Sequence record: MT932213.1
DNA from: Escherichia phage VEc74
Length of the DNA: 64,000 nucleotides
Direction: 5' to 3' (one strand)
Shown: piece after piece, positions 5,149 through 55,795 of the stretch
Layout of the letters: every line of letters begins with the position of its first letter
Position numbering within the stretch: position 1 is the stretch's first letter
Program-made: the position numbers and the translations under genes
The notes under the pieces: generated by a model
Database searches by the model: none
Told to the model about the DNA's origin: nothing
What the model saw: the letters and a program-made list of their open reading frames with translations, nothing else

Positions 5149-5157
5149 AAGTTATCC

Positions 5158-5838
5158 TTATTTTAATGTTACGAAAGAAGAATTGCGTGTTTCACGAATT
5201 AAAACTGATCCGTCACGGTTAATGTAATAAATTAAGCTAAATAAAGTTTGGTGTGCTGACGCATGCTCAAAACTTGTTGGGTGAGATTTCCAATCCGGAG
5301 TTTCAGCGATCCATTGATAAATCCACCAAGGAACAGTGCAGAATCCTGGATTTTTTCCAATCAGCTGAAGATTCGGACTAAAGTTTTCCGGAAGAGTAAA
5401 TACAGACGGCTTTTCAGATTCAATAATCTCAGCTACAGCCTGTTCGAATTTTTCTTCAACAAAAGGAGTATCTTCAATCAAAACATCGGTATTTTCAGGA
5501 ATTTTATCCGTTTCTACTACTTCAATTTTAATGTCAGATTTAACTGGAGAATCAATCAGAAGTACTGCTTCTGGATTGACTTCTTCATCGTCATATTTTA
5601 ATCCCTCTGCGGCATCAGCAGCATCAATTAAGTCTTTAATAGATAACCCATCAGTCTCTGGCATAGGTTCACTAGCGAGCTTCTGGAGGGCTTCTTCAAT
5701 ATCAACAACGATATTATCAAAAGATTTATTCTTTTTGACCTTTATACCAAACTGTTCAGCATATTCAGCTAATTTAGCTTTAGCTTCTTTATTATCATCA
5801 AGAGCCTTCAGCTCTGCAATATAATCTTTATCTATCAT
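5158..5838 (-). CDS. inh: Inhibitor of prohead protease (Inh, hoc.1 position)
   Basis: 226-aa acidic ORF directly upstream of hoc, size and position as T4 inh. Confidence 0.7.
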   Translation of the reverse strand: MIDKDYIAELKALDDNKEAKAKLAEYAEQFGIKVKKNKSFDNIVVDIEEALQKLASEPMPETDGLSIKDLIDAADAAEGLKYDDEEVNPEAVLLIDSPVKSDIKIEVVETDKIPENTDVLIEDTPFVEEKFEQAVAEIIESEKPSVFTLPENFSPNLQLIGKNPGFCTVPWWIYQWIAETPDWKSHPTSFEHASAHQTLFSLIYYINRDGSVLIRETRNSSFVTLK

Positions 5839-41711: not shown

Positions 41712-42620
41712 TTAAAGGTCATTCAAAAGGTCATCCAGGTCCGTGTCATCAGCACTAGATGAACTGCCAGAGCTTGAGCTCATAAAATCATCTTCAGTTT
41801 TTGTTTTGAAGTCATCAACATTGAATGCATCCAAATCATCAGCAACTTTATCAGCTTTCTTAGCGGCAGTTGCTGCGGCACCACCCATAGCAGCAGTTCC
41901 CATAACTTGACTGAACTTAGTGCTCAGTTCTTCAAACGATTTGAATTTATCTTTAGAAGTCATTTCAGAAAGGTCAACCATTTGTTCGAACAGTTCTTTC
42001 TGGAAAGATTCATCATCAATGTTTGGAATCGCAGATTGATTCAGGAATTTAGATTCATCGTAGTTACTAAAACCAGAAACTTGTTTAACTTTCAGTACAA
42101 AGTTAGCACCTTCCCACGGACAAGTTACATCAACTGGAGTTTCACCCATTTCAACATCAACCGCAATCATTGCATTGATTTTATCCCAGATTTTCTTACC
42201 GAAACGGTATTTAAATACTTTACCTTCGTTTTCTGGAGCAGCTGGGTCTTTTACAACAAGAATATTAGCCCAGTAAGAAGTTTTACGTTTAACAAGACTG
42301 TACTCTTTATTGTCAGTGTTGTACAGATCATTTTTACTAATGTATTGACATACTGGGCAAGAATCGTAATCACCGTGGGTAGATGAACAATTTTCGATAT
42401 ACCATTTACCGTTTTTCTTGAAACCGTGATTTACAAGAATTGCGAATGGTGCTTGTTCATCATTTTTAGACGGAAGAAAACGAATTACTGCTTGACCGTT
42501 ACCCGCATTGTCGAGTTTCAGTTTCCACTCGCCTTTATCTTCAGAAGAAAAACCACCTTTATTTCCAGCCAGTTTAGCCATTTGTGCAGCGAGTTCAGCA
42601 GTAGATTTACGTTTAAACAT
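41712..42620 (-). CDS. 32: Single-stranded DNA-binding protein gp32
   Basis: 302-aa ORF; [50 protein letters not shown] and acidic Ser/Asp-rich C-terminus match T4 gp32. Confidence 0.95.
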
Positions 42621-42703
42621 TTTTATTTCCTTTTTAATTTAATTAACAGTTGGTGCTATGACGATGTATGACCTCATAGCTGGTCAGTGAGATAATTATA
42701 ATC
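42621..42703 (-). promoter_or_regulatory. Gene 32 translational operator: pseudoknot plus unstructured A/U-rich tract in the 5' leader
   Basis: Minus strand reads ...UGACCAGCUAUGAGGUCAUACAUCGUCAUAGCAC... then UUAAUUAAAUUAAAAAGGAAAUAAAAAUG, matching the T4 autoregulatory leader as I recall it. Confidence 0.65.
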
Positions 42704-42711
42704 TATTTATA
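42704..42711 (-). promoter_or_regulatory. Late promoter TATAAATA (minus strand) for gene 32
   Basis: Reverse complement of plus-strand tatttata, directly downstream of gene 59 stop. Confidence 0.6.
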
Positions 42712-42719
42712 ATAAGCAA

Positions 42720-43373
42720 TTAATACTTGCAAGATTTCACAGTTTCAATGAAAACATTTTTAGCTTTCTGTGAATCAATATTTAAAATTTTTCTATAAGC
42801 CTTTAACTTTATAGAATAATTATTCCAGACTAAATTATCAGTCTGTTCATCATGTTTATCAATTATATTTAAAAATGAATCAAGCAAGATAAACGTCTCA
42901 AACGAAATTATGTTCGATTGCAGAAGTTTAAAAATATAACTTGATTGAACTTTTGGATTATACTCAAAAATTTCTTTAAAAGCAGAAACTTCAACTTTTT
43001 TACTAAAATAATAAATGTTGCGAATATCTTCTTCAAACTTAAATTTAATTTGCTTTAAGCGTCCGATATATTCACGATAAAACACAAGTGCATCAGCGTC
43101 AGAGATGTCACCAATCCAAGCATCTTGGTTAGCAACAAGATTGCTTATAAAGATTAAAGCAAGTTCCTTTAATTTATATTTTTCTGATAACTTCTGGAAA
43201 AAATACTTATCCCTTCGCTTTTGATAAGCGGCATCAGACACCCGCATGCACCAATTATACTTAATTACATCATACTTTCCATTCATATGTTGTTTTATCA
43301 TTAAGTATAATTTATAAACTGATTTACCATCAATGTATCTTTCACCACCAGCAGGCATGCGGAGTTTAATCAT
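42720..43373 (-). CDS. 59: Helicase loader gp59
   Basis: 217-aa ORF, T4 gp59 length and position. Confidence 0.8.
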   Translation of the reverse strand: MIKLRMPAGGERYIDGKSVYKLYLMIKQHMNGKYDVIKYNWCMRVSDAAYQKRRDKYFFQKLSEKYKLKELALIFISNLVANQDAWIGDISDADALVFYREYIGRLKQIKFKFEEDIRNIYYFSKKVEVSAFKEIFEYNPKVQSSYIFKLLQSNIISFETFILLDSFLNIIDKHDEQTDNLVWNNYSIKLKAYRKILNIDSQKAKNVFIETVKSCKY

Positions 43374-44943: not shown

Positions 44944-44951
44944 TATAAATA
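44944..44951 (+). promoter_or_regulatory. Late promoter TATAAATA for gene 34
   Basis: Exact motif 35 nt upstream of gene 34 ATG. Confidence 0.65.
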
Positions 44952-44985: not shown

Positions 44986-47900
44986 ATGGCCGAGATTAAA
45001 AGAAAGTTCAGAGCAGAAGATGGTCTGGACGCAGGTGGTGATAAAATAATCAACGTAGCTTTAGCTGATCGTGCCGTAGGAACTGACGGCGTTAACGTTG
45101 ATTACTTAATTCAAGAAAACACAGTTCAACAATATGATCCAACTCGTGGATATTTAAAAGATTTTGTAATCATTTATGATAACCGCTTTTGGGCTGCTAT
45201 AAATGATATTCCAAAACCAGCAGGAGCTTTTAATAGCGTACGATGGAGAGCGTTACGTACTGATGCAAACTGGACAACTGTTTCATCAGGACCTTATCAA
45301 TTAAAGTCAGGCGAATCAATTTCAGTTGATACTGCAGCCGGTAATGACATTACATTTACTTTACCATCTTCCCCAATTGATGGAGATACTATCGTTCTCC
45401 AAGATATTGGAGGAAAACCTGGAGTTAATCAAGTTTTAATTACAGCACCGGTACAAAGCATTGTAAATTTTAGAGGTCAGCAAGTACGTTCAGTACTAAT
45501 GACTCATCCAAAATCACAGATAGTTTTAATTTTTAGTAATCGTCTGTGGCAAATGTATGTCGCTGATTATAGTAGAGAAGCTGTAGTTGTAACGCCTGCG
45601 AGTCTCTATCAGGCGCAATCAAACGATTTTATCGTACGTAGATTTACTTCTGCTTCAGCAATTAATATTAAACTTCCAAGATTTGCCAATCATGGCGATA
45701 TTATTAATTTCGTTGATTTGGATAAATTAAATCCTCTTTATCACACAATTGTTACTACATATGATGAAACAACTTCAGTACAAGAAGTTGGAACTCATTC
45801 CATTGAAGGTCGTACATCGATTGACGGTTTCTTGATGTTTGATGATAATGAGAAATTGTGGAGATTGCTTGACGGGGATAGTAAAGCACGTTTACGCATT
45901 ATAACAACTAATTCTAATATTCGTCCAAATGAAGAAGTTATGGTATTTGGTGCGAATAACGGAACAGCTCAGACAATTGAACTTCAGCTTCCGACTGATA
46001 TTTCTGTTGGTGATACTGTCAAAATTTCCATGAATTACATGAGAAAAGGACAAACGGTTAAAATCAAAGCTGCAGGTGAAGATAAAATTGCTTCTTCAGT
46101 TCAATTACTGCAATTCCCAAAACGCTCAGAATATCCACCTGAAGCTGAATGGGTTACAGTTCAAGAATTAGTTTTTAATGGTGAAACTAATTATGTTCCA
46201 GTTTTGGAGCTTGCTTATATAGAAGATTCTGATGGAAAATACTGGGTTGTACAGCAAAACGTTCCAACCGTAGAAAGAGTAGATTCTTTAAATGATTCTA
46301 CTAGAGCAAGATTAGGCGTAATTGCTTTAGCGACACAAGCTCAAGCTAATGTCGATTTAGAAAATTCTCCACAAAAAGAATTAGCAATTACTCCAGAAAC
46401 ATTAGCTAACCGTACTGCTACAGAAACTCGTAGAGGTATCGCAAGAATAGCAACTACTGCTCAAGTTAACCAGGATACTACATTCTCTTTTGCTGATGAC
46501 CTTATCATTACTCCTAAAAAGCTGAATGAAAGAACGGCTACTGAAACTCGTAGAGGTGTTGCTGAAATTGCTACGCAGCAAGAAACTAATACAGGAACCG
46601 ATGATACTACAATCATTACTCCTAAAAAGCTTCAAGCTCGTCAAGGTTCTGAATCATTATCTGGTATTGTAACCTTTGTATCTACTGCAGGTGCTACTCC
46701 AGCTTCTAGCCGTGAATTAAATGGTACGAATGTTTATAATAAAAACACTAATAATTTAGTTGTTTCGCCTAAAGCTTTGGATCAGTATAAAGCTACTCCA
46801 ACGCAGCAAGGTGCAGTAATTTTAGCAGTTGAAAGTGAAGTAATTGCTGGACAAAGTCAGGAAGGATGGGCAAATGCGGTTGTAACGCCAGAAACGTTAC
46901 ATAAAAAGACATCAACTGATGGAAGAATTGGTTTAATTGAAATTGCTACGCAAAGTGAAGTTAATACAGGAACTGATTATACTCGTGCAGTCACTCCTAA
47001 AACTTTAAATGATCGTAGAGCAACTGAAAGTTTAAGTGGTATAGCTGAAATTGCTACACAAGTTGAATTCGACGCAGGCGTCGACGATACTCGTATCTCT
47101 ACACCATTAAAAATTAAAACTAGATTTAATAGTACTGATCGTACTTCTGTTGTTGCTCTATCTGGATTAGTTGAATCAGGAACTCTCTGGGACCATTATA
47201 CCCTTAATATTCTTGAAGCAAATGAGACACAGCGTGGTACACTTCGTGTAGCTACACAGGTCGAAGCTGCTGCAGGAACACTAGATAATGTTTTAATAAC
47301 TCCTAAAAAGCTTTTAGGTACTAAATCTACCGAATCGCAAGAAGGTGTTATTAAAGTTGCAACTCAGTCTGAAGCTGTGGCTGGAACGTCAGCAAATACT
47401 GCTATATCTCCAAAAAATTTAAAATGGATTGTGCAGAGTGAACCTACCTGGGCAGCTACTACTACGATAAGGGGATTTGTTAAAACTTCATCTGGTTCAA
47501 TTACGTTCGTTGGTAATGATACAGCTGGTTCTACCCAAGATTTAGAACTGTATGAGAAAAATAGCTATGCAGTATCACCATATGAATTAAACCGTGTATT
47601 AGCAAATTATTTGCCGTTAAAAGCAAAAGCTGTAGATAGTAATTTATTGGATGGTCTAGATTCATCTCAGTTCATTCGTAGGGATATTGCACAGACGGTT
47701 AATGGTTCACTAACCTTAACCCAACAAACGAATCTGAGTGCCCCTCTTGTATCATCTAGTACTGGTGAATTTGGTGGTTCATTGGCCGCTAATAGAACAT
47801 TTACCATCCGTAATACAGGAGCCCCGACTAGTATCGTTTTCGAAAAAGGTCCTGCATCCGGGGCAAATCCTGCACAGTCAATGAGTATTCGTGTATGGGG

Positions 47901-48855
47901 TAACCAATTTGGCGGCGGTAGTGATACAACACGTTCGACAGTGTTTGAAGTTGGCGATGACACATCTCATCACTTTTATTCTCAACGTAATAAAGACGGT
48001 AATATAGCGTTTAACATTAATGGTACTGTAATGCCAATAAATGTTAATGCTTCAGGAACATTGAATGCAAATGGTGTAGCAACATTTGGTAATTCAGTCA
48101 CTGCAACTGGTGAAATTATTTCTCGAAGCGCAAATGCTTTCCGTGCTATTAACGGAAATTATGGTTTCATTGTTCGCAATGATGGACCAGTAACGAATTT
48201 TATGCTTACTGCATCGGGTGATCAGACTGGCGGATTTAATGGATTGCGTCCTTTAGCTATCAATAATGCATCTGGTCAAGTAACGATTGGTGAAAGCTTA
48301 ATTATTGCCAAAGGTGCTACTATAAATTCAGGCGGTTTGACTGTTAACTCGAGAATTCGTTCTCAGGGTACTAAAACATCTGATTTATACACCCGCGCTC
48401 CAACATCTGACACAGTAGGATTCTGGTCAATTGATATTAACGATTCAGCCACTTATAATCAATTCCCTGGTTATTTTAAAATGGTTGAAAAAACTAATGA
48501 AGTGACTGGACTTCCATATTTAGAACGTGGCGAAGAAGTTAAATCTCCTGGTACATTGACTCAGTTTGGTAACACACTTGATTCGCTTTACCAAGATTGG
48601 ATTACTTATCCAACGACCCCAGAAGCGCGCACCACTCGCTGGACACGTACATGGCAGAAAACCAAAAACTCTTGGTCAAGTTTTGTTCAGGTATTTGACG
48701 GAGGTAACCCTCCTCAGCCATCTGATATCGGTGCTTTACCATCTGATAATGCTATAATGGGTAATCTTACTATTCGTGATTTCTTACGAATTGGTAATGT
48801 TCGCATTGTTCCTGACCCAGTGAATAAAACGGTTAAATTTGAATGGGTTGAATAA
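44986..48855 (+). CDS. 34: Long tail fibre proximal subunit gp34
   Basis: 1289-aa ORF, exactly the T4 gp34 length; internal ~33-aa tail-fibre repeats. Confidence 0.93.
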   Translation: MAEIKRKFRAEDGLDAGGDKIINVALADRAVGTDGVNVDYLIQENTVQQYDPTRGYLKDFVIIYDNRFWAAINDIPKPAGAFNSVRWRALRTDANWTTVSSGPYQLKSGESISVDTAAGNDITFTLPSSPIDGDTIVLQDIGGKPGVNQVLITAPVQSIVNFRGQQVRSVLMTHPKSQIVLIFSNRLWQMYVADYSREAVVVTPASLYQAQSNDFIVRRFTSASAINIKLPRFANHGDIINFVDLDKLNPLYHTIVTTYDETTSVQEVGTHSIEGRTSIDGFLMFDDNEKLWRLLDGDSKARLRIITTNSNIRPNEEVMVFGANNGTAQTIELQLPTDISVGDTVKISMNYMRKGQTVKIKAAGEDKIASSVQLLQFPKRSEYPPEAEWVTVQELVFNGETNYVPVLELAYIEDSDGKYWVVQQNVPTVERVDSLNDSTRARLGVIALATQAQANVDLENSPQKELAITPETLANRTATETRRGIARIATTAQVNQDTTFSFADDLIITPKKLNERTATETRRGVAEIATQQETNTGTDDTTIITPKKLQARQGSESLSGIVTFVSTAGATPASSRELNGTNVYNKNTNNLVVSPKALDQYKATPTQQGAVILAVESEVIAGQSQEGWANAVVTPETLHKKTSTDGRIGLIEIATQSEVNTGTDYTRAVTPKTLNDRRATESLSGIAEIATQVEFDAGVDDTRISTPLKIKTRFNSTDRTSVVALSGLVESGTLWDHYTLNILEANETQRGTLRVATQVEAAAGTLDNVLITPKKLLGTKSTESQEGVIKVATQSEAVAGTSANTAISPKNLKWIVQSEPTWAATTTIRGFVKTSSGSITFVGNDTAGSTQDLELYEKNSYAVSPYELNRVLANYLPLKAKAVDSNLLDGLDSSQFIRRDIAQTVNGSLTLTQQTNLSAPLVSSSTGEFGGSLAANRTFTIRNTGAPTSIVFEKGPASGANPAQSMSIRVWGNQFGGGSDTTRSTVFEVGDDTSHHFYSQRNKDGNIAFNINGTVMPINVNASGTLNANGVATFGNSVTATGEIISRSANAFRAINGNYGFIVRNDGPVTNFMLTASGDQTGGFNGLRPLAINNASGQVTIGESLIIAKGATINSGGLTVNSRIRSQGTKTSDLYTRAPTSDTVGFWSIDINDSATYNQFPGYFKMVEKTNEVTGLPYLERGEEVKSPGTLTQFGNTLDSLYQDWITYPTTPEARTTRWTRTWQKTKNSWSSFVQVFDGGNPPQPSDIGALPSDNAIMGNLTIRDFLRIGNVRIVPDPVNKTVKFEWVE

Positions 48856-48863
48856 GAGGTATT

Positions 48864-49982
48864 ATGGAAAAATTTATGGCAGAGTTTGGACAAGGATATG
48901 TCCAAACGCCATTTTTATCGGAAAGCAATTCAGTAAGATACAAAATAAGTATAGCGGGTTCTTGCCCGCTTTCTACTGCAGGACCACCATATGTTAAATT
49001 TCAGGATAATCCTGTAGGAAGTCAAACATTTAGCGCAGGCCTTCATTTAAGAGTTTTTGACCCTTCCACCGGAGCATTAGTTGATAGTAAGTCATATGCT
49101 TTTTCGACTTCAAATGATACTACATCTGCTGCCTTTGTTAGTTTCATGAATTCTATTTCAAGCAATAGACTTGTTGCTATATTAACTAGCGGAAAGGTTA
49201 ATTTTCCTCCTGAAGTAGTATCTTGGTTAAGAACAGCAGGAACGTCTGCTTTTCCATCTGACTCTGTATTGTCAAGATTTGATGTATCATATGCTGCTTT
49301 TTACACTTCTTCTAAAAGAGCTATCGCATTAGAGCATGTTAAACTGAGCAACAGAAAAAGCACGGATGATTATCAAACTATTTTAGATGTTGTATTTGAC
49401 AGTTTAGAAGACGTCGGAGCTACCGGGTTTCCAAGAAGAACATATGAAAGCGTTGAGCAGTTTATGTCAGCTGTTGGTGGAACTAATAACGAAATTGCAC
49501 GTCTACCAACTTCATCCGCGATAAGTAAACTTTCTGACTACAATTTAATTCCTGGCGATGTTCTTTATCTTAAAGCACAACTATATGCTGATGAAGATTT
49601 ACTCGCTCTTGGAACTACGAATATATCTATTAGATTTTATAATGAATCGGATGGATATATTTCTTCAACACACGCTGAGTTTACTGGTCAAGCTGGGTCA
49701 TGGGAATTAAAGGAAGACTATGTAGTTGTTCCTGAAAATGCAGTAGGATTTACGATATATGCACAAAGAACTGCACAAGCAGGTCAAGGTGGCATGAGGA
49801 ATTTAAGTTTTTCTGAAGTATCAAGAAATGGCGGAATTTCAAAACCTACAGAATTTGGCGTCAATGGTATTCGAGTTAATTATGTCTGTGAATCTGCTTC
49901 ACCTCCAGATATAATGGTACTTCCTACACAAGCATCGTCTAAAACTGGTAAAGTGTTTGGACAAGAATTTAGAGAAGTATAA
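48864..49982 (+). CDS. 35: Long tail fibre hinge protein gp35
   Basis: 372-aa ORF, T4 gp35 length. Confidence 0.88.
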   Translation: MEKFMAEFGQGYVQTPFLSESNSVRYKISIAGSCPLSTAGPPYVKFQDNPVGSQTFSAGLHLRVFDPSTGALVDSKSYAFSTSNDTTSAAFVSFMNSISSNRLVAILTSGKVNFPPEVVSWLRTAGTSAFPSDSVLSRFDVSYAAFYTSSKRAIALEHVKLSNRKSTDDYQTILDVVFDSLEDVGATGFPRRTYESVEQFMSAVGGTNNEIARLPTSSAISKLSDYNLIPGDVLYLKAQLYADEDLLALGTTNISIRFYNESDGYISSTHAEFTGQAGSWELKEDYVVVPENAVGFTIYAQRTAQAGQGGMRNLSFSEVSRNGGISKPTEFGVNGIRVNYVCESASPPDIMVLPTQASSKTGKVFGQEFREV

Positions 49983-49987
49983 ATTGA

Positions 49988-50005
49988 GGGAGCCTTCGGG
50001 TTCCC
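49988..50005 (+). terminator. GC hairpin (gggagccttcgggttccc) plus T-run after gene 35
   Basis: 7-bp stem with one G-U pair, UUCG loop, TTTTTCTTT tail. Confidence 0.65.
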
Positions 50006-50013
50006 TTTTTCTT

Positions 50014-50021
50014 TATAAATA
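50014..50021 (+). promoter_or_regulatory. Late promoter TATAAATA for genes 36-37-38
   Basis: Exact motif 24 nt upstream of gene 36 ATG. Confidence 0.65.
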
Positions 50022-50044
50022 CTATTAAAATAAAGGGGCATACA

Positions 50045-50710
50045 ATGGCTGATTTAAAAGTAGGTTCAACAACTGGAGGCTCTGTCATTTGGCATCAAGG
50101 AAATTTTCCATTGAATCCAGCCGGTGACGATGTACTCTATAAATCATTTAAAATATATTCAGAATATAATAAACCACAAGCTGATGATAACGATTTCGTT
50201 TCTAAAGCTAATGGTGGTACTTATGCATCAAAGGTAACATTTAACGCTGGCATTCAAGTCCCATATGCTCCAAACATCATGAGCCCATGCGGTATTTATG
50301 GGGGTAACGGTGATAATGCTACTTTTGATACAGCAAATATCGATATTGTTTCATGGTATGGCGTAGGATTTAAATCGTCATTTGGTACAACAGGCCGAAC
50401 TGTTGTAATTAATACACGCAATGGTGATATTAATACAAAAGGTACAGTGACTGCATCAAAACAAGTAAGAAGCGATGCGGCTGCTCCTATAGCAGCGAAT
50501 GACCTTACTAGAAAGGACTATGTTGATGGAGCAATAAATACTGTTACTGCAAATGCAAACTCTAGGGTGCTACGGTCTGGTGACACCATGACAGGTAATT
50601 TAACAGCGCCAAACTTTTTCTCGCAGAATCCTGCGTCTCAACCTTCACATGTTCCACGATTTGACCAAATCGTAATTAAGGATTCTGTTCAAGATTTCGG
50701 CTATTATTAA
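50045..50710 (+). CDS. 36: Long tail fibre distal connector gp36
   Basis: 221-aa ORF, T4 gp36 length. Confidence 0.88.
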   Translation: MADLKVGSTTGGSVIWHQGNFPLNPAGDDVLYKSFKIYSEYNKPQADDNDFVSKANGGTYASKVTFNAGIQVPYAPNIMSPCGIYGGNGDNATFDTANIDIVSWYGVGFKSSFGTTGRTVVINTRNGDINTKGTVTASKQVRSDAAAPIAANDLTRKDYVDGAINTVTANANSRVLRSGDTMTGNLTAPNFFSQNPASQPSHVPRFDQIVIKDSVQDFGYY

Positions 50711-50718
50711 GAGGACTT

Positions 50719-53700
50719 ATGGCTACTTTAAAACAAATACAATTTAAAAGAAGCAAAACTGCAGGAGCACGTCCTGCCGCTTCAGTATTAGCCGAAGGTG
50801 AATTGGCTATAAACTTAAAAGACCGTGTACTTTTTACTAAAGATGACCAAGGAAATATTATTGATCTGGGTTTTGCTAAAGGCGGTAGTATTGACGGGAA
50901 TGTTATTCATATAGGAAACTATAACCAAACTGGTGATTATACTTTAAATGGCGCATTAACTCAGACAGGTAATTTTAATTTAACTGGTATTGCTCGAGTA
51001 ACTCGCGATATTATTGCCGCTGGGCAGATTATGACTGAAGGCGGTGAACTTATTACAAAAAGTTCAGGTACAGCACATGTTCGTTTTTTCGATGGCAATA
51101 GTCGCGAACGTGGAATCATTTATGCCCCGGCTAATGATGGTTTAACTACACAAGTACTTAATATCAGGGTTCAAGACTATGCCGCTGGTAGCGAAAGCAC
51201 TTATGCATTTTCAGGCAGTGGCCTATTTACTTCACCTGAAGTATCAGCATGGAAATCTATTTCGTCTCCACAAATTCTGACCGATAAAGTTATTACAAAT
51301 GGGAAGAAGACAGGCGATTATGATATCTATTCATTATCAAATAACACTCCAATGGCAGAAGGCGAAACGGCTATTAACCACCTCCGTGTTATGCGAAATG
51401 CTGTAGGAGCAGGTATTTTCCACGAAGTTAATGTTAATGACGGAATAACCTGGTATTCCGGAGATGGCTTAGACACTTATCTTTGGTCGTTTAACTGGGC
51501 CGGTGGATTGAAAGCGGGTCGTTCTATTGCTGTTGGCCTTCCTCACGGTTCTAAAAATTATTCAGAAATGGGCACGGCTTCTATTGCTTTAGGAGATAAT
51601 GATACCGGATTTAAATGGCATCAGGATGGATATTATTTCAGCGTCAATAATGGAACGAAAACATTTTTATTTAGTCCTAGTGAAACAACTAGTCTAAGAA
51701 AATTTGTAGCTGGATATTCTACTAACGGAACCGATTTAACGACTCCTCCAACTGAAAACTATGCTCTTGCTACTGTCGTGACATATCACGATAATAACGC
51801 GTTTGGAGATGGTCAGACTCTTTTAGGATATTATCAAGGCGGTAATTATCATCACTATTTCCGCGGTAAAGGTACTACAAACATTAATACTCACGGCGGT
51901 TTGTTAGTTACTCCAGGTAATATTGATGTTATTGGCGGTTCTGTTAATATTGATGGTAGAAATAATGCTTCTACACTGATGTTTAGAGGTAACACGACCG
52001 GAGCTAGTTCAGTTGATAATATGACAATTTCTGTGTGGGGCAATACGTTTACTAATCCTAGTGTAGGTGATCGTAAAAACGTCATGGAAATTTCTGATGC
52101 AACTAGTTGGATGAGCTATATTCAAAGACTTACAACAGGTGAAGTAGAAATGAACGTTAACGGTTCATTTGAATCATCTGGTGTTACTGCTGGAAATAGA
52201 GGAGTTCACACAACGGGCGAAATTTCATCTGGGGCTGTGAATGCACTTCGTATTTGGAATGCAGATTATGGAGCCATTTTTAGACGTTCAGAAGGAAGTC
52301 TTCATATTATTCCAACTGCTTATGGTGAAGGCAAAAATGGTGATATCGGTCCACTTCGTCCGTTTAGTATGGCTTTAGATACCGGTAAAGTTACTATTCC
52401 AGATTTACAATCAAGTTACAATACGTTTGCTGCTAACGGTTATATTAAATTTGTTGGTCATGGAGCAGGTGCCGGCGGTTATGACATTCAATATGCTCAA
52501 GCAGCTCCCATTTTCCAGGAAATCGATGATGATGCCGTAAGTAAATATTACCCAATTGTTAAGCAAAAATACCTTCAAGGTAAAGCTGTTTGGTCTTTAG
52601 GTACTGAAATTAATTCGGGAACATTTGTTTTACACCATATCAAAGAAGATGGTTCACAAGGCCATACATCAAGATTTAACGCTGACGGTACAGTTAACTT
52701 CCCGGATAACGTTCAGGTCGGTGGTGGTGAAGCTACTATTGCTCGTAATGGTAATATTTTCTCGGATATTTGGAAATCGTTTACTTCTGCCGGTGATACT
52801 ACAAATATTCGCGATGCTATTGCGACTCGTGTTTCGAAAGAAGGCGACACGATGACCGGTAAGTTGACTTTATCTGCTGGAGATGATGCCCTTGTTTTAA
52901 CTGCAGGCGTGGGTGCTTCATCACACATCCGTAGTGATGTAGGTGGTATAGGTAACTGGTATATAGGCAAAGGCGGCGGCGACAATGGTCTAGGTTTTTA
53001 CAGTTACATTACACAAGGCGGTGTATACATAACAAATAACGGCGAAATAGCGCTTTCTCCTCAAGGTCAAGGAACATTTAATTTTAATAGAGACCGCCTT
53101 CATATAAACGGTACACAATGGACTGCGCACCAGGCCGGCGATTGGGGAAATCAATGGCGCCAGGAAGCTCCTGTATTTGTGGATTTTGGTAATGTTGGTA
53201 ATGATAGTTATTATCCTATTATTAAAGGAAAATCTGGTATTACTAATGAAGGTTATATATCTGGTGTAGATTTTGGTATGCGCCGTATCACTAATACATG
53301 GGCCCAAGCTATTATCCGTGTTGGTAACCAGGAAAACGGTCATGACCCACAAGCTGTCTACGAATTCCACCACAATGGAGTTATGTATGCTCCTAACATG
53401 GTTAAAACTGGAGCAAGATTATCAGCTGGCGGTGGTGACCCGGTATGGACTGGGCCATGTCTTGTTATTGGTGATAATGATACTGGATTAGTTCATGGTG
53501 GTGATGGACGAATTAACATGGTTGCAAATGGAGTGCATATTGCTTCATGGTCAGCTGCTTATCAGATCCATGAAGGTCTTTGGGATTCAACTGGTGCTTT
53601 ATGGACTGAAACAGGAAGAGCTATTATTTCTTATGGGCATTTAGTCCAACAAAGTGATGCCTATTCCACATATGTTCGAGATGTTTATGTCCGTTCTGAT

Positions 53701-54030
53701 ATTCGTGTTAAAAAAGACCTTGTTAAATTTGAAAATGCTTCTGAGAAACTTTCCAAAATTAATGGTTACACTTATATGCAGAAGCGAGGCCTAGATGAAG
53801 AAGGCAATCAGAAATGGGAACCTAACGCCGGTTTAATTGCTCAAGAAGTTCAAGCTATTTTACCAGAATTAGTTGAAGGCGACCCGGATGGTGAAGCTTT
53901 ACTTCGTTTGAACTATAACGGTGTAATTGGTTTAAATACAGCTGCAATCAATGAGCATACCGCAGAAATTGCAGAACTTAAGTCAGAGATTGAAGAACTT
54001 AAAGCATTAGTTAAATCATTGTTAAAATAA
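50719..54030 (+). CDS. 37: Long tail fibre distal subunit gp37 with C-terminal intramolecular-chaperone-like domain
   Basis: 1103-aa ORF; N-terminus [52 protein letters not shown] as T4 gp37; C-terminus ...SDIRVKKD...[38 protein letters not shown]. Confidence 0.9.
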
Positions 54031-54035
54031 TAAGA

Positions 54036-54049
54036 GGGGCTTCGGCCCC
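54036..54049 (+). other. GC hairpin (ggggcttcggcccc) between genes 37 and 38 without a strong T-run
   Basis: Perfect 5-bp stem; immediately followed by the gene 38 RBS GGAGG. Confidence 0.4.
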
Positions 54050-54061
54050 TTGGAGGTTTAT

Positions 54062-54835
54062 ATGGCAGTTGAAGGACCGTGGGTAGGATGGTCTGCAAGG
54101 GTACAGACTGGAGACCCTTGGATGGCAGGAGCAGCCGTAAGATTAAGAATGGGTGTTCCATTTTGGATGAGTAATATGATAGGTCGATCTGTTGAAGTAA
54201 TTCACACGCTTGGAGCAGACCATAACTTCAATGGTCAGTGGTTCCGAGATAGATGTTTTGAGGCAGGTAGTACACCTATAGTGTTTAATATCACTGGAGA
54301 TTTAGTATCATATTCTAAAGATGTTCCTTTATTCTTCATGTACGGAGATACACCGAATGAATATGTTCAACTGAATATACATGGTGTAACGATGTATGGC
54401 CGTGGCGGGAATGGCGGTAGCAATAGTCCTGGCTCAGCTGGGGGTCATTGTATTCAAAATGATATTGGCGGGAGACTAAGAATTAATAATGGCGGAGCTA
54501 TTGCTGGAGGCGGCGGAGGCGGTGGCGGCGGTAACAGGGGTAGACTAGTATTTGGTGGTGGCGGTGGTCGCCCATTCGGTAGTGGCGGGTCTTCCTCTCA
54601 TATGAGTGCTGGTGCAACCGCCGGCACTATTTACGCTCCGGGTGCAGGATCTGTCGGTGAGGGGTCTCTTAGTGCATATACAGGCGGGAATGGCGGTGAA
54701 GTTGGCTCCGCAGGAGGTAGATGTAATACTCACGGTACCGGTGCAGAATATGACGGCGGCGCTGGTGGTTATGCCGTCATAGGGTCTGCTCCAACGTGGA
54801 TAAATGTTGGAGCAATATATGGTCCAAGAGTATAA
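54062..54835 (+). CDS. 38: T2-type receptor-recognising adhesin gp38 with glycine-rich motifs
   Basis: 257-aa ORF from ATG 54062 (track start 54050 is TTG); [43 protein letters not shown] and C-terminal [15 protein letters not shown] typical of T2-family gp38. Confidence 0.85.
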
Positions 54836-54865
54836 TTTGAATAAATATCCTTAAAAGGAGGGTCT

Positions 54866-55522
54866 ATGGCAGCACCTAGAATATCATTTTCGCCCTCTGA
54901 TATTCTGTTGGGTGTTCTAGATCGCTTGTTCAAAGATAACGCTACCGGGAAAGTTCTTGCTTCCCGGGTAGCTGTCGTAATTCTTTTATTTATGATGGCG
55001 ATTGTTTGGTATAGGGGAGATAGTTTCTTTGAGTACTATAAGCAATCAAAGTATGAAACATACAGTGAAATTATTGAAAAGGAAAGAAATGCACGCTTTG
55101 AATCTGTCGCCCTGGAACAACTCCAGATAGTTCATATATCATCTGAGGCAGACTTTAGTGCGGTGTATTCTTTCCGCCCTAAAAACTTAAACTATTTTGT
55201 CGATATTATAGCATATGAAGGAAGATTACCTTCAACAATAACAGAAAAATCACTTGGAGGATATCCTGTTGATAAAACTATGGATGAATATACGGTTCAT
55301 TTAAATGGACGTCATTATTATTCCAACTCAAAATTTGCTTTTTTACCAACTAAAAAGCCTACTCCCGAAATAAACTACATGTATAGTTGTCCATATTTTA
55401 ATTTGGATAATATCTATGCTGGAACGATAACCATGTACTGGTATAGAAATGATCATATAAGTAATGACCGCCTTGAATCAATATGTGCTCAGGCGGCCAG
55501 AATATTAGGAAGGGCTAAATAA
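54866..55522 (+). CDS. t: Holin T
   Basis: 218-aa ORF; MAAPRISFSPSDILLGVLDRLFKDNATGKVLASRVAVVILLFMMAIVWYRG matches T4 holin. Confidence 0.95.
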   Translation: MAAPRISFSPSDILLGVLDRLFKDNATGKVLASRVAVVILLFMMAIVWYRGDSFFEYYKQSKYETYSEIIEKERNARFESVALEQLQIVHISSEADFSAVYSFRPKNLNYFVDIIAYEGRLPSTITEKSLGGYPVDKTMDEYTVHLNGRHYYSNSKFAFLPTKKPTPEINYMYSCPYFNLDNIYAGTITMYWYRNDHISNDRLESICAQAARILGRAK

Positions 55523-55795
55523 TTATTTGTTCGTATACATCTCTAGATATCGATATACACCCTCAAAACCCTCGTTGAATTCGTCGATGAGGGTTTTCTT
55601 ATCTTCTTGGGTTAATTCAGAAACAATTTTACGGAATGAATTCTGATTTAACTTTCTACCTTCATGCGTTACTCCAATCTCATTCAGAAATGCAATAAAA
55701 TTAACACGATTCTCAACAATATCTTCTCTGGAAAATTTAATCAAAATAGACGCAACAGTAATAATTTCACGAACTGTATCAATGTTTTTATTCAT
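55523..55795 (-). CDS. asiA: Anti-sigma70 factor AsiA
   Basis: 90-aa ORF; MNKNIDTVREIITVASILIKFSREDIVENRVNFIAFLNEIGVTHEGRKL matches T4 AsiA. Confidence 0.92.
   Translation of the reverse strand: MNKNIDTVREIITVASILIKFSREDIVENRVNFIAFLNEIGVTHEGRKLNQNSFRKIVSELTQEDKKTLIDEFNEGFEGVYRYLEMYTNK

What the first reader, a model, noticed from the sequence alone, without database searches (positions are those of the whole stretch)
53695..54835. Mosaic tail-fibre tip: T4-like gp34-36 but T2-type gp37 C-terminus and glycine-rich gp38 adhesin
gp34, gp35 and gp36 have exactly the T4 lengths (1289, 372, 221 aa), but gp37 is 1103 aa against 1026 aa in T4 as I recall. Its last ~110 residues ([27 protein letters not shown]...[38 protein letters not shown]) look like a C-terminal intramolecular chaperone/autoproteolysis domain of the kind found on many phage fibres. 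gp38 is a 257-aa protein with polyglycine stretches separating variable segments, typical of T2-family adhesins that sit on the fibre tip and set host range. In T4, by contrast, gp38 is only an assembly chaperone. Receptor specificity therefore probably resides in gp38 here, and the adhesin module looks horizontally exchanged.
Basis: partly seen in the sequence, partly recalled or inferred. Interest (0 to 1): 0.45.

Follow-up and report, generated by a model that had tools for sequence, protein, structure and literature searches.

The report
T2-type phage tail-fibre adhesin module
This is the ordinary, well-studied "T2-type" tip of a T4-like coliphage's long tail fibre: a fibre protein that cuts off its own folding domain, capped by a small glycine-rich adhesin that most likely binds the E. 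coli outer-membrane protein OmpA. It is a new allele and a new combination of modules, but not a new kind of thing.

Summary
g34, g35, g36, g37 and g38 encode 1289, 372, 221, 1103 and 257 aa, and T4's lengths are 1289, 372, 221, 1026 and 183. The finding's start, 53695, is the first base of the Ser993 codon of gp37.

- **gp37 C-terminus:** the last 111 aa are a Peptidase_S74 intramolecular-chaperone domain with the Ser993/Lys998 dyad (SDIRVK). They are 100% identical to PP01 and 57% to the solved S16 domain.
- **gp38:** it is a T2-type adhesin (PF05268 and PF21721; PDB 9V85 and 6F45) and is unrelated to T4's gp38 chaperone.
- **Predicted receptor:** the receptor-binding domain is 94-95% identical to those of EV240 and FL12, both experimentally OmpA-dependent. 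It is 77-78% identical to Tsx binders and about 50% to OmpC or FadL/OmpF binders. OmpA ("type 2") is therefore the predicted receptor.
- **Mosaicism:** this is real and fine-grained. g36 is T4-type. The g37 body, tip and chaperone domain and the gp38 N-terminus are PP01/Ac3/G2133-type, not T2's own allele (33%). The hypervariable cassette is EV240/FL12-type.

All of this is textbook T-even biology, and 840 phage records carry gp38 homologues. The only new elements are the allele (A228 and G235 are private) and the pairing of a T4-type g36 with a PP01-type g37. Interest is low.

The parts
50014..50021 (+). T4-type late-promoter motif TATAAATA upstream of g36. It is the only such motif between g36 and t, so g36-g37-g38-t are probably co-transcribed (inference).
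   Evidence: pattern search. Another copy lies at 44944, before g34.
50045..50710 (+). g36, the distal hinge connector (221 aa). It is the T4-type allele.
   Evidence: Pfam Phage_T4_gp36 E=2.3e-50. Identity is 95.9% to T4 gp36 against 70-82% to T2, T6, PP01, FL12, G2133 and Ac3. The centre, 50236-50535, is 90-97% identical in DNA to T4 and 47-66% to the others.
50719..53694 (+). g37, the predicted mature distal half-fibre (residues 1-992). It ends in ...YVRDVYVR, the predicted docking tip for gp38.
   Evidence: 92.3% aa to G2133, 90.2% to PP01, 85% to Ac3, and 35-39% to T4, T2, T6 and FL12. DNA homology to T4 ends at 50885. The Gp34_trimer domain covers residues 449-550. The last 60 aa before the cleavage site resemble PP01, G2133 and Ac3 only.
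53695..54030 (+). g37 C-terminal intramolecular-chaperone (Peptidase_S74) domain, residues 993-1103 plus the stop codon. It carries the Ser993/Lys998 dyad. Predicted self-cleavage is R992^S993.
   Evidence: PF13884 E=1.1e-12 at residues 993-1052. PDB 6F45_A E=3.2e-35 and MYRF 7DC3 E=0.018, both aligning the dyad. 100% identical to the PP01 and G2133 domains, 57% to S16, 27-33% to T2 and T6.
54034..54051 (+). Intergenic UUCG-tetraloop hairpin GAGGGGC-UUCG-GCCCCUU between g37 and g38.
   Evidence: It is annotated as a putative terminator in G2133. It is conserved in position in T4, T2, T6, PP01 and FL12, with stem differences that keep the pairing. There is no T-run on the + strand, so it is not a canonical terminator for the late transcript.
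54052..54056 (+). Shine-Dalgarno GGAGG, 5 nt before the g38 ATG.
   Evidence: sequence. The same site is annotated as a ribosome-binding site in Ac3.
54062..54181 (+). g38 N-terminal attachment domain (aa 1-40), with Trp7, Trp20 and Trp35 conserved. It is the PP01/Ac3/FL18/FL23 class, which co-varies with the gp37 tip type.
   Evidence: PF21721 E=2.1e-19. W7, W20 and W35 are invariant in A1. Identity is 37/40 to Ac3, FL18 and FL23 but 18-22/42 to T2, T6, EV240 and FL12.
54182..54397 (+). g38 conserved beta-helix core (aa 41-112).
   Evidence: PF05268 covers aa 45-257. Identity is 69-71/72 to every T6/PP01-group adhesin. This is the stretch in which homology switches from PP01-like to FL12/EV240-like DNA.
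54398..54835 (+). g38 receptor-binding polyglycine (PGII sandwich) domain, aa 113-257 plus the stop codon. Glycine-rich motifs GRM1-5 alternate with HVS1 54419-54490, HVS2 54533-54553, HVS3 54590-54682 and HVS4 54719-54754.
   Evidence: Aligned to the crystal structures 9V85 and 6F45_D. HVS1-3 are identical to FL12, and HVS1-4 are 96% identical to EV240, FL12, G2133 and Ac3. GC content rises to 0.50 here because of GGN codons.
54866..55522 (+). Gene t (holin), the conserved right-hand flank of the module.
   Evidence: PF11031 E=1.4e-116. 96-99.5% identical to all references. T4 DNA homology resumes at 54841.

Best explanation
The interval holds the distal tip module of a Tequatrovirus long tail fibre in its common T2-type form.

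- **Assembly (inferred by homology to S16, T2 and PP01).** gp37 (1103 aa) trimerises with the help of its own C-terminal Peptidase_S74 intramolecular-chaperone domain. The Ser993/Lys998 dyad then cuts the chain between Arg992 and Ser993 and releases 111 residues. This exposes the flat ...DVYVR tip.
- **Capping.** One copy of gp38 (257 aa) docks onto that tip through its N-terminal attachment domain (aa 1-40, with conserved Trp7, Trp20 and Trp35). gp38 remains in the virion as the receptor-binding protein.
- **Receptor binding.** The gp38 C-terminal domain is a polyglycine-II sandwich built from five glycine-rich motifs. The hypervariable segments protrude from it as loops. Because HVS1-3 are identical, and HVS4 nearly identical, to those of the OmpA-dependent phages FL12 and EV240, the primary receptor is most likely E. 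coli OmpA (the narrow-range 'type 2' class of Lutz et al.).
- **Origin.** The locus was assembled by homologous recombination at conserved stretches. It joins a T4-type g36, a PP01/Ac3/G2133-type g37 with a matching gp38 N-terminus, and an EV240/FL12-type hypervariable cassette.

Shown here: the domain identities, the dyad, the motif architecture, the identity patterns and the breakpoints. Inferred: cleavage, capping stoichiometry and receptor.
For: - **Gene lengths and order:**
- **Pfam:** Peptidase_S74, GP38, Gp38_N, Phage_T4_gp36 and Phage_holin_T are all far above their cut-offs. In the controls, T2 and T6 gp37 and T2 gp38 hit the same families, while T4 gp37 and gp38 do not.
- **Solved homologues:** 9V85 (PP01 gp38 receptor-binding domain, E=1.5e-79), 6F45_D (S16 gp38, E=1.2e-52, full length) and 6F45_A (S16 gp37 tip plus chaperone domain, E=2.7e-44).
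- **Dyad and cleavage context:** DVYVR^SDIRVKK here, against S16 DLNVS^SDRRIKK, where the last 113 residues are autocleaved (PMC7917993).
- **Receptor class:**
  - The C-terminal domain is 95.2% identical to EV240, 94.5% to FL12, 88.3% to FL20 and 84.8% to FL18. All four are experimentally OmpA-dependent.
  - It is 77-78% identical to FL23 and T6 (Tsx), 54.9% to PP01 (OmpC), 50.9% to AV119 (OmpA type 1) and 48.1% to T2.
  - Receptor data come from PMC12032242 and from bioRxiv 10.64898/2026.04.02.716166. In the latter, putting EV240 gp38 from HVS2 onwards into CM8 switched it from Tsx to OmpA.
- **Mosaicism:** blastn breakpoints and 150-nt sliding identities, and discordant nearest neighbours for the gp38 N- and C-domains.
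- **Co-variation of the gp37 tip with the gp38 N-terminus:** one search compared. This fits the reported incompatibility of PP01 gp38 with T2 gp37 (PMC12892980).
Against: - Nothing in the sequence contradicts the module assignment.
- The receptor call rests on similarity alone. A single hypervariable-segment substitution can retarget a gp38 (RB68 Q206L, OmpF to OmpW).
- This gp38 has a private Ala228 in HVS4, where the OmpA-type relatives have Thr and the Tsx types have Ser. The position aligns with PP01 Tyr230, a residue that crosslinks to the receptor. It also has a private Gly235 in GRM5.
- HVS1 is shared with the Tsx binders.
- Cleavage and virion incorporation were not observed.
- If the window came from a mixed-population assembly, some junctions could be chimeric. 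This cannot be tested without reads.
Confidence: 0.9

Rival explanations
1. The module assignment is the same, but the primary receptor is Tsx (T6-like) rather than OmpA.
For: HVS1 and all glycine-rich motifs are identical to T6 and FL23. The gp38 N-terminal 112 aa are 96.4% identical to the Tsx phage FL23. Tsx is the commonest gp38 receptor (PMC12032242). Type 2 OmpA adhesins are phylogenetically close to the Tsx adhesins.
Against: - HVS2 matches Tsx types at 3/7, HVS3 at 14-15/31 and HVS4 at 7-8/12.
- Against FL12 and EV240 the same segments match at 6-7/7, 30-31/31 and 9-11/12.
- The Tsx types carry a 5-residue insertion (YYSPF) before HVS2 and a 4-residue deletion in HVS3, and both are absent here.
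- Exchanging gp38 from HVS2 onwards is sufficient to switch Tsx to OmpA.
Confidence: 0.06
2. The private substitutions (Ala228 in HVS4, Gly235 in GRM5, Ser174 shared with Ac3) have shifted specificity. The shift could be to a different spectrum of OmpA loop variants, to a dual receptor (OmpA plus LPS, as in RB32 or Ox2), or to another porin.
For: Single-residue changes retarget gp38 (RB68 Q206L; Ox2 host-range mutants; PST compared with T6). Ala228 aligns with PP01 Tyr230 in loop E, the loop that governs PP01 specificity. No identical gp38 is on record.
Against: Thr to Ala is a conservative loss of one hydroxyl and one methyl group. 71 of 74 hypervariable positions match proven OmpA binders. 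FL20 and FL18 differ from FL12 at many more positions and still use OmpA with the same variant spectrum.
Confidence: 0.12
3. gp38 here is a T4-style assembly chaperone that is absent from the virion, and gp37 itself binds the receptor.
For: The gene name and position are the same as in T4. Nothing else supports this reading.
Against: There is no sequence relationship to T4 gp38. T4 gp38 matches neither PF05268 nor PF21721. This gp37 lacks the T4 C-terminal Collar and Phage_fiber needle domain and ends instead in an S74 chaperone domain. The homologous S16 complex has been solved with gp38 capping gp37 (6F45).
Confidence: 0.01
4. The junction between the T4-type g36 and the PP01-type g37 is an assembly chimera of two co-occurring Tequatroviruses, not a natural recombinant.
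For: No record in the 50,697-phage collection carries both parts at high identity. The best full-length hit to 50045-51600 is 91.1%. The switch lies in a stretch conserved among all T-evens (50536-50885), which is where assemblers can cross over.
Against: The same conserved stretches are the natural recombination sites (PMC3157838). Comparable patchwork is seen all along g34 and g37, against several references. All reading frames are intact and the gp36/gp37 lengths are canonical.
Confidence: 0.08

Closest known systems
Escherichia phage PP01 gp37/gp38 (LC348379; gp38 receptor-binding domain crystal structure 9V85; receptor OmpC of O157)
   Same: - gp37 is 90.2% identical, and its tip and 111-aa S74 chaperone domain are 100% identical.
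- The intergenic hairpin is the same.
- The gp38 N-terminal 112 aa are 90% identical.
- The fold family and the glycine-rich-motif scaffold are the same.
   Different: - The hypervariable segments are only 38% identical and the C-domain is 54.9% identical, so the predicted receptor differs (OmpA, not OmpC).
- PP01 g36 is not the T4-type allele (80.7%).
Escherichia phages vB_EcoM_G2133 (MK327928) and Ac3 (OK040907 / AF060870; Tetart et al. 1998)
   Same: - These are the nearest overall relatives.
- gp37 is 1103 aa and gp38 is 257 aa in both.
- gp38 is 94.6-96% identical.
- The gp37-tip class is the same, and the hypervariable set is the same OmpA-type-2-like one.
   Different: - g36 is only about 81% identical, and its centre is 66% identical in DNA.
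- Segments of g37 drop to 63-80%.
- The residues V26, A228 and G235 are private to the window.
- I found no receptor experiment for either phage in the papers read.
Escherichia phages EV240 (LR597657) and FL12 (PP400786): experimentally OmpA-dependent gp38 adhesins ('type 2')
   Same: The receptor-binding domain is 95.2% and 94.5% identical. HVS1-3 are identical to FL12, and HVS4 differs from EV240 by one residue.
   Different: - Their gp38 N-terminal attachment domains belong to the T6 class (EV240) or the T2 class (FL12), matching at 19-22/42.
- Their gp37 proteins, tips and chaperone domains are of other lineages (31-32% identity in the chaperone domain; 117 and 99 aa removed rather than 111).
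Salmonella phage S16 gp37-gp38 complex (PDB 6F45; Dunne et al. 2018)
   Same: - This is the structural prototype. An S74 chaperone domain is autocleaved at S^SDRRIKK, and a monomeric gp38 then caps the trimer through Trp prongs.
- It has the beta-helix plus PGII sandwich architecture.
- gp38 aligns over its full length (E=1.2e-52), and the chaperone domain is 57% identical (PMC7917993; PMC12032242).
   Different: The genus and host differ, the receptor is OmpC, and the hypervariable loops are unrelated.
Phage T2 gp37/gp38 (AP018813), the namesake of the 'T2-type'
   Same: The architecture and Pfam families are the same: an S74 chaperone domain with SDIRLK, GP38 plus Gp38_N, and gene order 37-38-t.
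   Different: gp37 is 1341 aa and 38.7% identical. The chaperone domain is 33% identical (99 aa). gp38 is about 48-52% identical, with the hypervariable segments at 25%. The receptors are FadL/OmpF.
Phage T4 gp37/gp38 (NC_000866)
   Same: g34, g35, g36 and t are 95-98% identical. The first ~55 codons of g37 and the intergenic hairpin are shared.
   Different: T4 gp37 ends in the Collar/needle receptor-binding domain and has no S74 domain. T4 gp38 (183 aa) is an unrelated chaperone that is not in the virion.

Membership tests
Peptidase_S74 / C-terminal intramolecular chaperone domain (endosialidase, T5 pb1, S16/T2 gp37, MYRF) | Sequence match to the family profile above the curated threshold | tested here: met
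   PF13884 scores 48.5 bits against a cut-off of 22, E=1.1e-12, residues 993-1052 on profile positions 1-57 of 58.
Peptidase_S74 / C-terminal intramolecular chaperone domain | Catalytic Ser-Lys dyad in the S-D-x-x-x-K spacing at the very start of the domain | tested here: met
   S993-D-I-R-V-K998. It aligns to S16 SDRRIK, T2 SDIRLK, T6 SDSRLK and PP01 SDIRVK, and to ADLRAK of MYRF 7DC3.
Peptidase_S74 / C-terminal intramolecular chaperone domain | Located at the extreme C-terminus of a trimeric fibre or spike protein and ending in a helical, heptad-like segment | tested here: met
   The domain is the last 111 of 1103 residues and ends in [22 protein letters not shown], which aligns to the S16 C-terminal segment. 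Helicity itself was not modelled.
Peptidase_S74 / C-terminal intramolecular chaperone domain | Autoproteolytic release after trimerisation | not testable with these tools
   This needs virion SDS-PAGE or mass spectrometry, or S993A/K998A mutants. It has been reported for S16 (PMC7917993) and for T2/T6 gp37 (PMC3157838).
T2-type gp38 tail-fibre adhesin (PF05268 + PF21721) | Profile matches to both the adhesin body and the N-terminal attachment domain | tested here: met
   GP38 scores 232.4 bits (cut-off 25) over aa 45-257 on profile positions 1-218 of 218. Gp38_N scores 69.6 bits over aa 1-40. T2 gp38 gives the same pair of hits.
T2-type gp38 tail-fibre adhesin | Five conserved glycine-rich motifs alternating with four hypervariable segments in the C-terminal half | tested here: met
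   GRM1 is aa 113-119, GRM2 144-157, GRM3 165-176, GRM4 208-219 and GRM5 starts at 232. HVS1-4 lie between them. The glycine-rich motifs are invariant or nearly so across 10-12 adhesins, while the hypervariable segments diverge.
T2-type gp38 tail-fibre adhesin | Conserved tryptophans in the N-terminal attachment domain that plug into the gp37 tip | tested here: met
   W7, W20 and W35 are invariant in alignment A1. Their role is described for S16 (PMC7917993).
T2-type gp38 tail-fibre adhesin | Homology to solved gp38 structures (beta-helix plus PGII sandwich) | tested here: met
   9V85 E=1.5e-79 over aa 36-257, and 6F45_D E=1.2e-52 over aa 1-254. No structure was predicted here because sequence homology at this level makes it unnecessary.
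T2-type gp38 tail-fibre adhesin | Genomic context: directly downstream of a g37 that carries an S74 chaperone domain, and upstream of holin t | tested here: met
   The order is the same in T2, T6, PP01, FL12, G2133, Ac3 and AV119.
T2-type gp38 tail-fibre adhesin | Present in the virion as a monomer capping the gp37 trimer, and determining host range | not testable with these tools
   This needs virion proteomics, cryo-EM and a g38 swap.
OmpA-binding 'type 2' gp38 (FL12, FL18, FL20; also EV240) | A hypervariable set that clusters with experimentally OmpA-dependent adhesins and away from the Tsx, OmpC, OmpF/FadL and OmpA-type-1 sets | tested here: met
   HVS1-4 are 96% identical to EV240 and FL12, 88% to FL20 and FL18, 66% to T6 and FL23, 38% to PP01 and 25% to T2. 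The C-domain is 50.9% identical to AV119. The NJ tree places the window inside the EV240/FL12 clade.
OmpA-binding 'type 2' gp38 | Loss of infection on an ompA deletion, and infection restricted to OmpA variants 1, 3 and 4 | not testable with these tools
   This is a plating experiment, defined in PMC12032242.
T4-type gp38 (tail-fibre assembly chaperone) | Sequence homology to T4 gp38 | tested here: not met
   A global alignment gives only 27 aligned columns at 18.5% identity. T4 gp38 hits no Pfam family, and in particular not PF05268 or PF21721.

The most novel reading that the evidence does not exclude
The one hypervariable substitution private to this adhesin is Thr to Ala at residue 228. 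It lies in HVS4, in the equivalent of loop E, and aligns with PP01 Tyr230, which contacts the receptor. Together with Gly235 in GRM5 it may retune recognition. The outcome could be a different set of OmpA loop variants or a second receptor, giving a natural example of minimal-change host-range shift on an otherwise EV240/FL12-type cassette. In addition, the T4-type gp36 joined to a PP01-type gp37 may be a natural fibre chimera not yet represented among sequenced phages.
Probability: 0.1. Interest if true: 0.3.

Novelty: new member of a known kind. Interest (0 to 1): 0.1.

Why it matters
It matters little for basic biology. The gp37 self-cleaving chaperone domain and the gp38 adhesin system have been known since the 1980s, have been solved structurally (6F45, 9V85), and are the majority arrangement in T4-type phages. 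The practical value is in annotation. This phage can be labelled as carrying a T2-type fibre tip with a predicted OmpA ('type 2', narrow-range) receptor, which is useful for designing phage cocktails. The locus is also a clean illustration of three-level modularity. The gp36 allele, the gp37 tip together with the gp38 N-terminus, and the hypervariable cassette each have different nearest relatives.

Tried and rejected
- **Public scans for the private HVS4 allele.** I scanned IMG/VR and JGI metagenomes with exact and degenerate DNA patterns and found no hits. A positive-control pattern for the common Thr allele also gave none in IMG/VR, and IMG/VR holds only 16 gp38 relatives, the best at 84%. 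These negatives say nothing about how rare the allele is.
- **Exact-sequence lookup of gp38** in the 15-billion-protein collection found nothing on record.
- **Whole-protein gp38 identity as a receptor predictor** was rejected. The conserved N-terminal half dominates it: the Tsx phage FL23 scores 88.9% overall and the OmpA phage FL12 scores 87.5%. I used identities restricted to the C-domain and the hypervariable segments instead.
- **My first C-domain extraction** missed AV119, because its GRM1 reads GRGGQG. I redid it from the full-length alignment.
- **The intergenic hairpin as a rho-independent terminator of the late transcript** was rejected. It has no T-run on the + strand, and the scan only scores it on the - strand. 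Its folding z-score of -1.27 is unremarkable on its own, so its conservation across phages is the only argument that it has a function.
  - I did not run structure prediction, because solved homologues match at E=1e-52 to 1e-79.
  - I did not run the 5.8-billion-protein homology search, because the answer could not change the classification.
- I could not retrieve the K3, Ox2 or M1 gp38 sequences (the classical OmpA binders), because I had no accession for them.

Full report
**1. What is at the coordinates**

The + strand of window 44986-55522 carries six consecutive ORFs:

| Gene | Coordinates | Length |
|---|---|---|
| g34 | 44986-48855 | 1289 aa |
| g35 | 48864-49982 | 372 aa |
| g36 | 50045-50710 | 221 aa |
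| g37 | 50719-54030 | 1103 aa |
| g38 | 54062-54835 | 257 aa |
| t | 54866-55522 | 218 aa |

- g38 starts at the ATG at 54062, which follows GGAGG at 54052-54056.
- The mechanical ORF list extends g38 to TTG 54050.
- The finding's start, 53695, is the first base of the codon for Ser993 of gp37, and 111 residues follow it.
- The interval therefore covers the gp37 C-terminal domain, a 31-nt spacer and g38.
- The backbone is a Tequatrovirus. It is about 97% identical in DNA to RB3 and AdolfPortmann in the conserved part, and 93-95% identical to many records across the fibre region.

**2. The gp37 C-terminus**

- **Profile match.** Pfam places Peptidase_S74 ('chaperone of endosialidase') on residues 993-1052, E=1.1e-12, starting at profile position 1.
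- **Dyad.** The domain opens with S993-D-I-R-V-K998, the Ser-x4-Lys dyad. T2 (SDIRLK), T6 (SDSRLK), PP01, G2133 and Ac3 (SDIRVK) carry the same motif at the same place, and T4 gp37 has none.
- **Solved relatives.** The last 121 residues match the S16 gp37 chain of PDB 6F45 at E=3.2e-35. They also match, weakly, the MYRF autoprocessing domain 7DC3, where the Ser position reads Ala and the Lys aligns.
- **Cleavage site.** In S16 the last 113 residues are autocleaved at DLNVS^SDRRIKK, which exposes the docking surface for gp38 (PMC7917993). The homologous site here is DVYVR^SDIRVKK.
- **Precedent.** C-terminal cleavage of gp37 in T2 and T6 is stated in PMC3157838.
- **Controls.** T2 and T6 gp37 hit PF13884. 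T4 gp37 instead hits Collar and Phage_fiber.

**3. gp38**

- **Family.** It hits PF05268 (E=7e-69, full profile) and PF21721 (E=2e-19), exactly as T2 gp38 does.
- **Structures.** It aligns over its full length with S16 gp38 (6F45_D, E=1.2e-52). Over residues 36-257 it aligns with the crystal structure of the PP01 gp38 receptor-binding domain (9V85, E=1.5e-79) (9V85 is identified in PMC12892980).
- **Not T4's gp38.** T4 gp38 is unrelated: 27 alignable columns at 18.5% identity, and no Pfam hit.
- **Architecture.** An alignment with ten to twelve adhesins shows the canonical layout:
  - an attachment domain at aa 1-40, with invariant W7, W20 and W35;
  - a conserved core at aa 41-112;
  - five glycine-rich motifs separating HVS1 (120-143), HVS2 (158-164), HVS3 (177-207) and HVS4 (220-231).
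- **Composition.** The GC spike to 0.50 over 54250-55000 is the GGN codon load.

**4. Receptor class**

Whole-protein identity misleads, because the N-terminal half is conserved. The Tsx phage FL23 scores 88.9% and the OmpA phage FL12 scores 87.5%. Restricting the comparison to the receptor-binding domain gives this ranking:

| Reference | Receptor | C-domain identity to window |
|---|---|---|
| G2133 | not found in the papers read | 95.9% |
| Ac3 | not found in the papers read | 95.9% |
| EV240 | OmpA | 95.2% |
| FL12 | OmpA type 2 | 94.5% |
| FL20 | OmpA type 2 | 88.3% |
| FL18 | OmpA type 2 | 84.8% |
| FL23 | Tsx | 78.0% |
| T6 | Tsx | 77.3% |
| PP01 | OmpC | 54.9% |
| AV119 | OmpA type 1 | 50.9% |
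| T2 | FadL/OmpF | 48.1% |

- HVS1-3 are identical to FL12, and HVS4 differs from EV240 by one residue.
- FL12, FL18 and FL20 lose infectivity on an ompA deletion and infect only OmpA variants 1, 3 and 4 ('type 2'; PMC12032242).
- EV240 is OmpA/HepI by RB-TnSeq. Moving its gp38 from HVS2 onwards into CM8 switches CM8 from Tsx to OmpA (bioRxiv 10.64898/2026.04.02.716166).
- I therefore predict OmpA, with about 0.75-0.8 confidence.

The caveats are as follows.
- One substitution can retarget a gp38, as RB68 Q206L does from OmpF to OmpW.
- This protein has three residues not seen in the eleven references: V26, A228 and G235.
- A228 aligns with PP01 Tyr230, the loop-E residue that crosslinks to OmpC.

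**5. Mosaic structure**

The following comes from blastn breakpoints and 150-nt sliding identities.

- **T4 homology.** It runs from upstream of g34 to window 50885 (g37 codon ~55) at 94.4%. It stops there and resumes at 54841, just before t.
- **g36.** Its centre (50236-50535) is 90-97% identical to T4 but 47-66% identical to T2, T6, PP01, FL12, G2133 and Ac3. The protein is 95.9% identical to T4 against about 81% to the others.
- **g37 body.** From 50836 onwards g37 belongs to the PP01/Ac3/G2133 family (85-92% aa), and the best match switches among these three every few hundred bases.
- **gp37 tip and chaperone domain.** They are 100% identical to PP01 and G2133 and 57% to S16, but only 27-33% identical to T2, FL12, T6 and EV240.
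- **gp38 N-terminus.** Its attachment domain follows the same grouping: 37/40 to Ac3, FL18 and FL23, 31-33/40 to PP01 and G2133, and 18-22/42 to T2, T6, EV240 and FL12. This fits physical co-adaptation with the gp37 tip and the reported failure of PP01 gp38 to function on T2 gp37 (PMC12892980).
- **Hypervariable cassette.** It has a different affinity, to EV240 and FL12. PP01 DNA homology ends at 54528 (GRM2), while FL12 homology begins at 54155. The conserved core and glycine-rich motifs are thus the crossover zone, as proposed in PMC3157838 and earlier work.
- **g34.** It is also a patchwork. Positions 47686-47985 are T4-like and 47986-48285 are T6/PP01-like.

'Horizontally exchanged' is therefore correct, but three points qualify it.
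- The lengths of gp34 and gp35 are uninformative, because T6 and PP01 gp34 are also 1289 aa.
- The adhesin arrangement is the predominant one in the T4 superfamily, with T4 as the exception (PMC3157838 abstract). 840 phage records give a tblastn match to this gp38.

**6. How it most likely works**

This is inferred by homology.
1. Late transcription starts from the TATAAATA motif at 50014 and yields g36-g37-g38-t.
2. gp37 trimerises with the help of its S74 domain.
3. Ser993 and Lys998 cleave R992^S993 and release 111 residues.
4. The DVYVR tip accepts the Trp prongs of one gp38.
5. The PGII-sandwich loops of gp38 bind the OmpA surface loops reversibly, before baseplate triggering.

**7. Novelty**

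- No identical gp38 is on record, and the nearest is 94.6-96% identical.
- No phage record combines the T4-type g36 with this g37 family. The best full-length hit to 50045-51600 is 91.1%.
- These are allele-level and combination-level novelties inside a thoroughly characterised system.
- The IMG/VR and JGI pattern scans were uninformative, because the positive control also failed.
- An assembly chimera at the g36/g37 junction cannot be excluded without reads, but nothing suggests one.

**8. Verdict**

This is a new member of a known kind, and interest is low (0.1).

Noticed in passing
window 54034-54051 (g37-g38 spacer): A UUCG-tetraloop hairpin, GAGGGGC-UUCG-GCCCCUU, lies between the double stop of g37 and the g38 Shine-Dalgarno. 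An equivalent hairpin sits at the same place in T4, T2, T6, PP01 and FL12, although the flanking coding DNA of the T4 and T2 types is non-homologous. The stems differ by changes that keep the pairing. It has no T-run on the + strand, so it is more likely an mRNA-stability or processing element, or a micro-homology for recombination, than a terminator.
   Followed up: partly
window 47686-48285 (inside g34): There is a sub-genic patchwork in the proximal half-fibre gene. Positions 47686-47985 are 98-100% identical to T4 but 63-83% to T2, T6, PP01 and FL12. The next 300 nt are 92-96% identical to T6 and PP01 but 72-78% to T4.
   Followed up: no
window 50836-53700 (g37 body): The best DNA match alternates among PP01, Ac3 and G2133 every few hundred bases. 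For example, 51286-51435 is 100% to PP01 and Ac3 but 73% to G2133, and 52036-52185 is 95% to G2133, 75% to PP01 and 63% to Ac3. This indicates repeated recombination within one gp37 family.
   Followed up: partly
window 54743-54745 (gp38 Ala228) and 54764-54766 (Gly235): These residues are private to this adhesin among the 12 compared. Ala228 replaces Thr (OmpA types) or Ser (Tsx types) at the position aligned with PP01 Tyr230, which crosslinks to OmpC. Gly235 replaces an otherwise conserved Ala in GRM5.
   Followed up: partly
window 55565-55597 (+ strand): A strong terminator-like hairpin (14 pairs, followed by a T-rich tail) lies 43 nt downstream of the t stop codon, inside the 3' end of the convergent 90-aa ORF 55523-55795. 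That ORF is asiA, judged by position and by the annotation of related records. The hairpin is possibly the end of the late fibre/holin transcript.
   Followed up: no
window 42621-42719: Only 99 nt separate the 302-aa ORF (41712-42620, -) from the 217-aa ORF (42720-43373, -). By length and synteny these correspond to g32 and g59. T4 has the homing endonuclease gene segG between those genes, and the window lacks it, as do T2, PP01 and AV119.
   Followed up: no
L010 (Ac3, OK040907) 4501-5271 compared with AF060870: The two public Ac3 gp38 sequences differ slightly (92.2% and 92.6% to the window by tblastn). The OK040907 version shows an extra Leu in HVS3 and a missing Cys in HVS4 relative to all relatives. 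This suggests sequencing or indel differences between the records.
   Followed up: no
window 44944-44951 and 50014-50021: T4 late-promoter motifs (TATAAATA) lie immediately upstream of g34 and g36 only. The window-wide count of 12 is not above chance (expected 9.2), so position, not number, is the argument.
   Followed up: no
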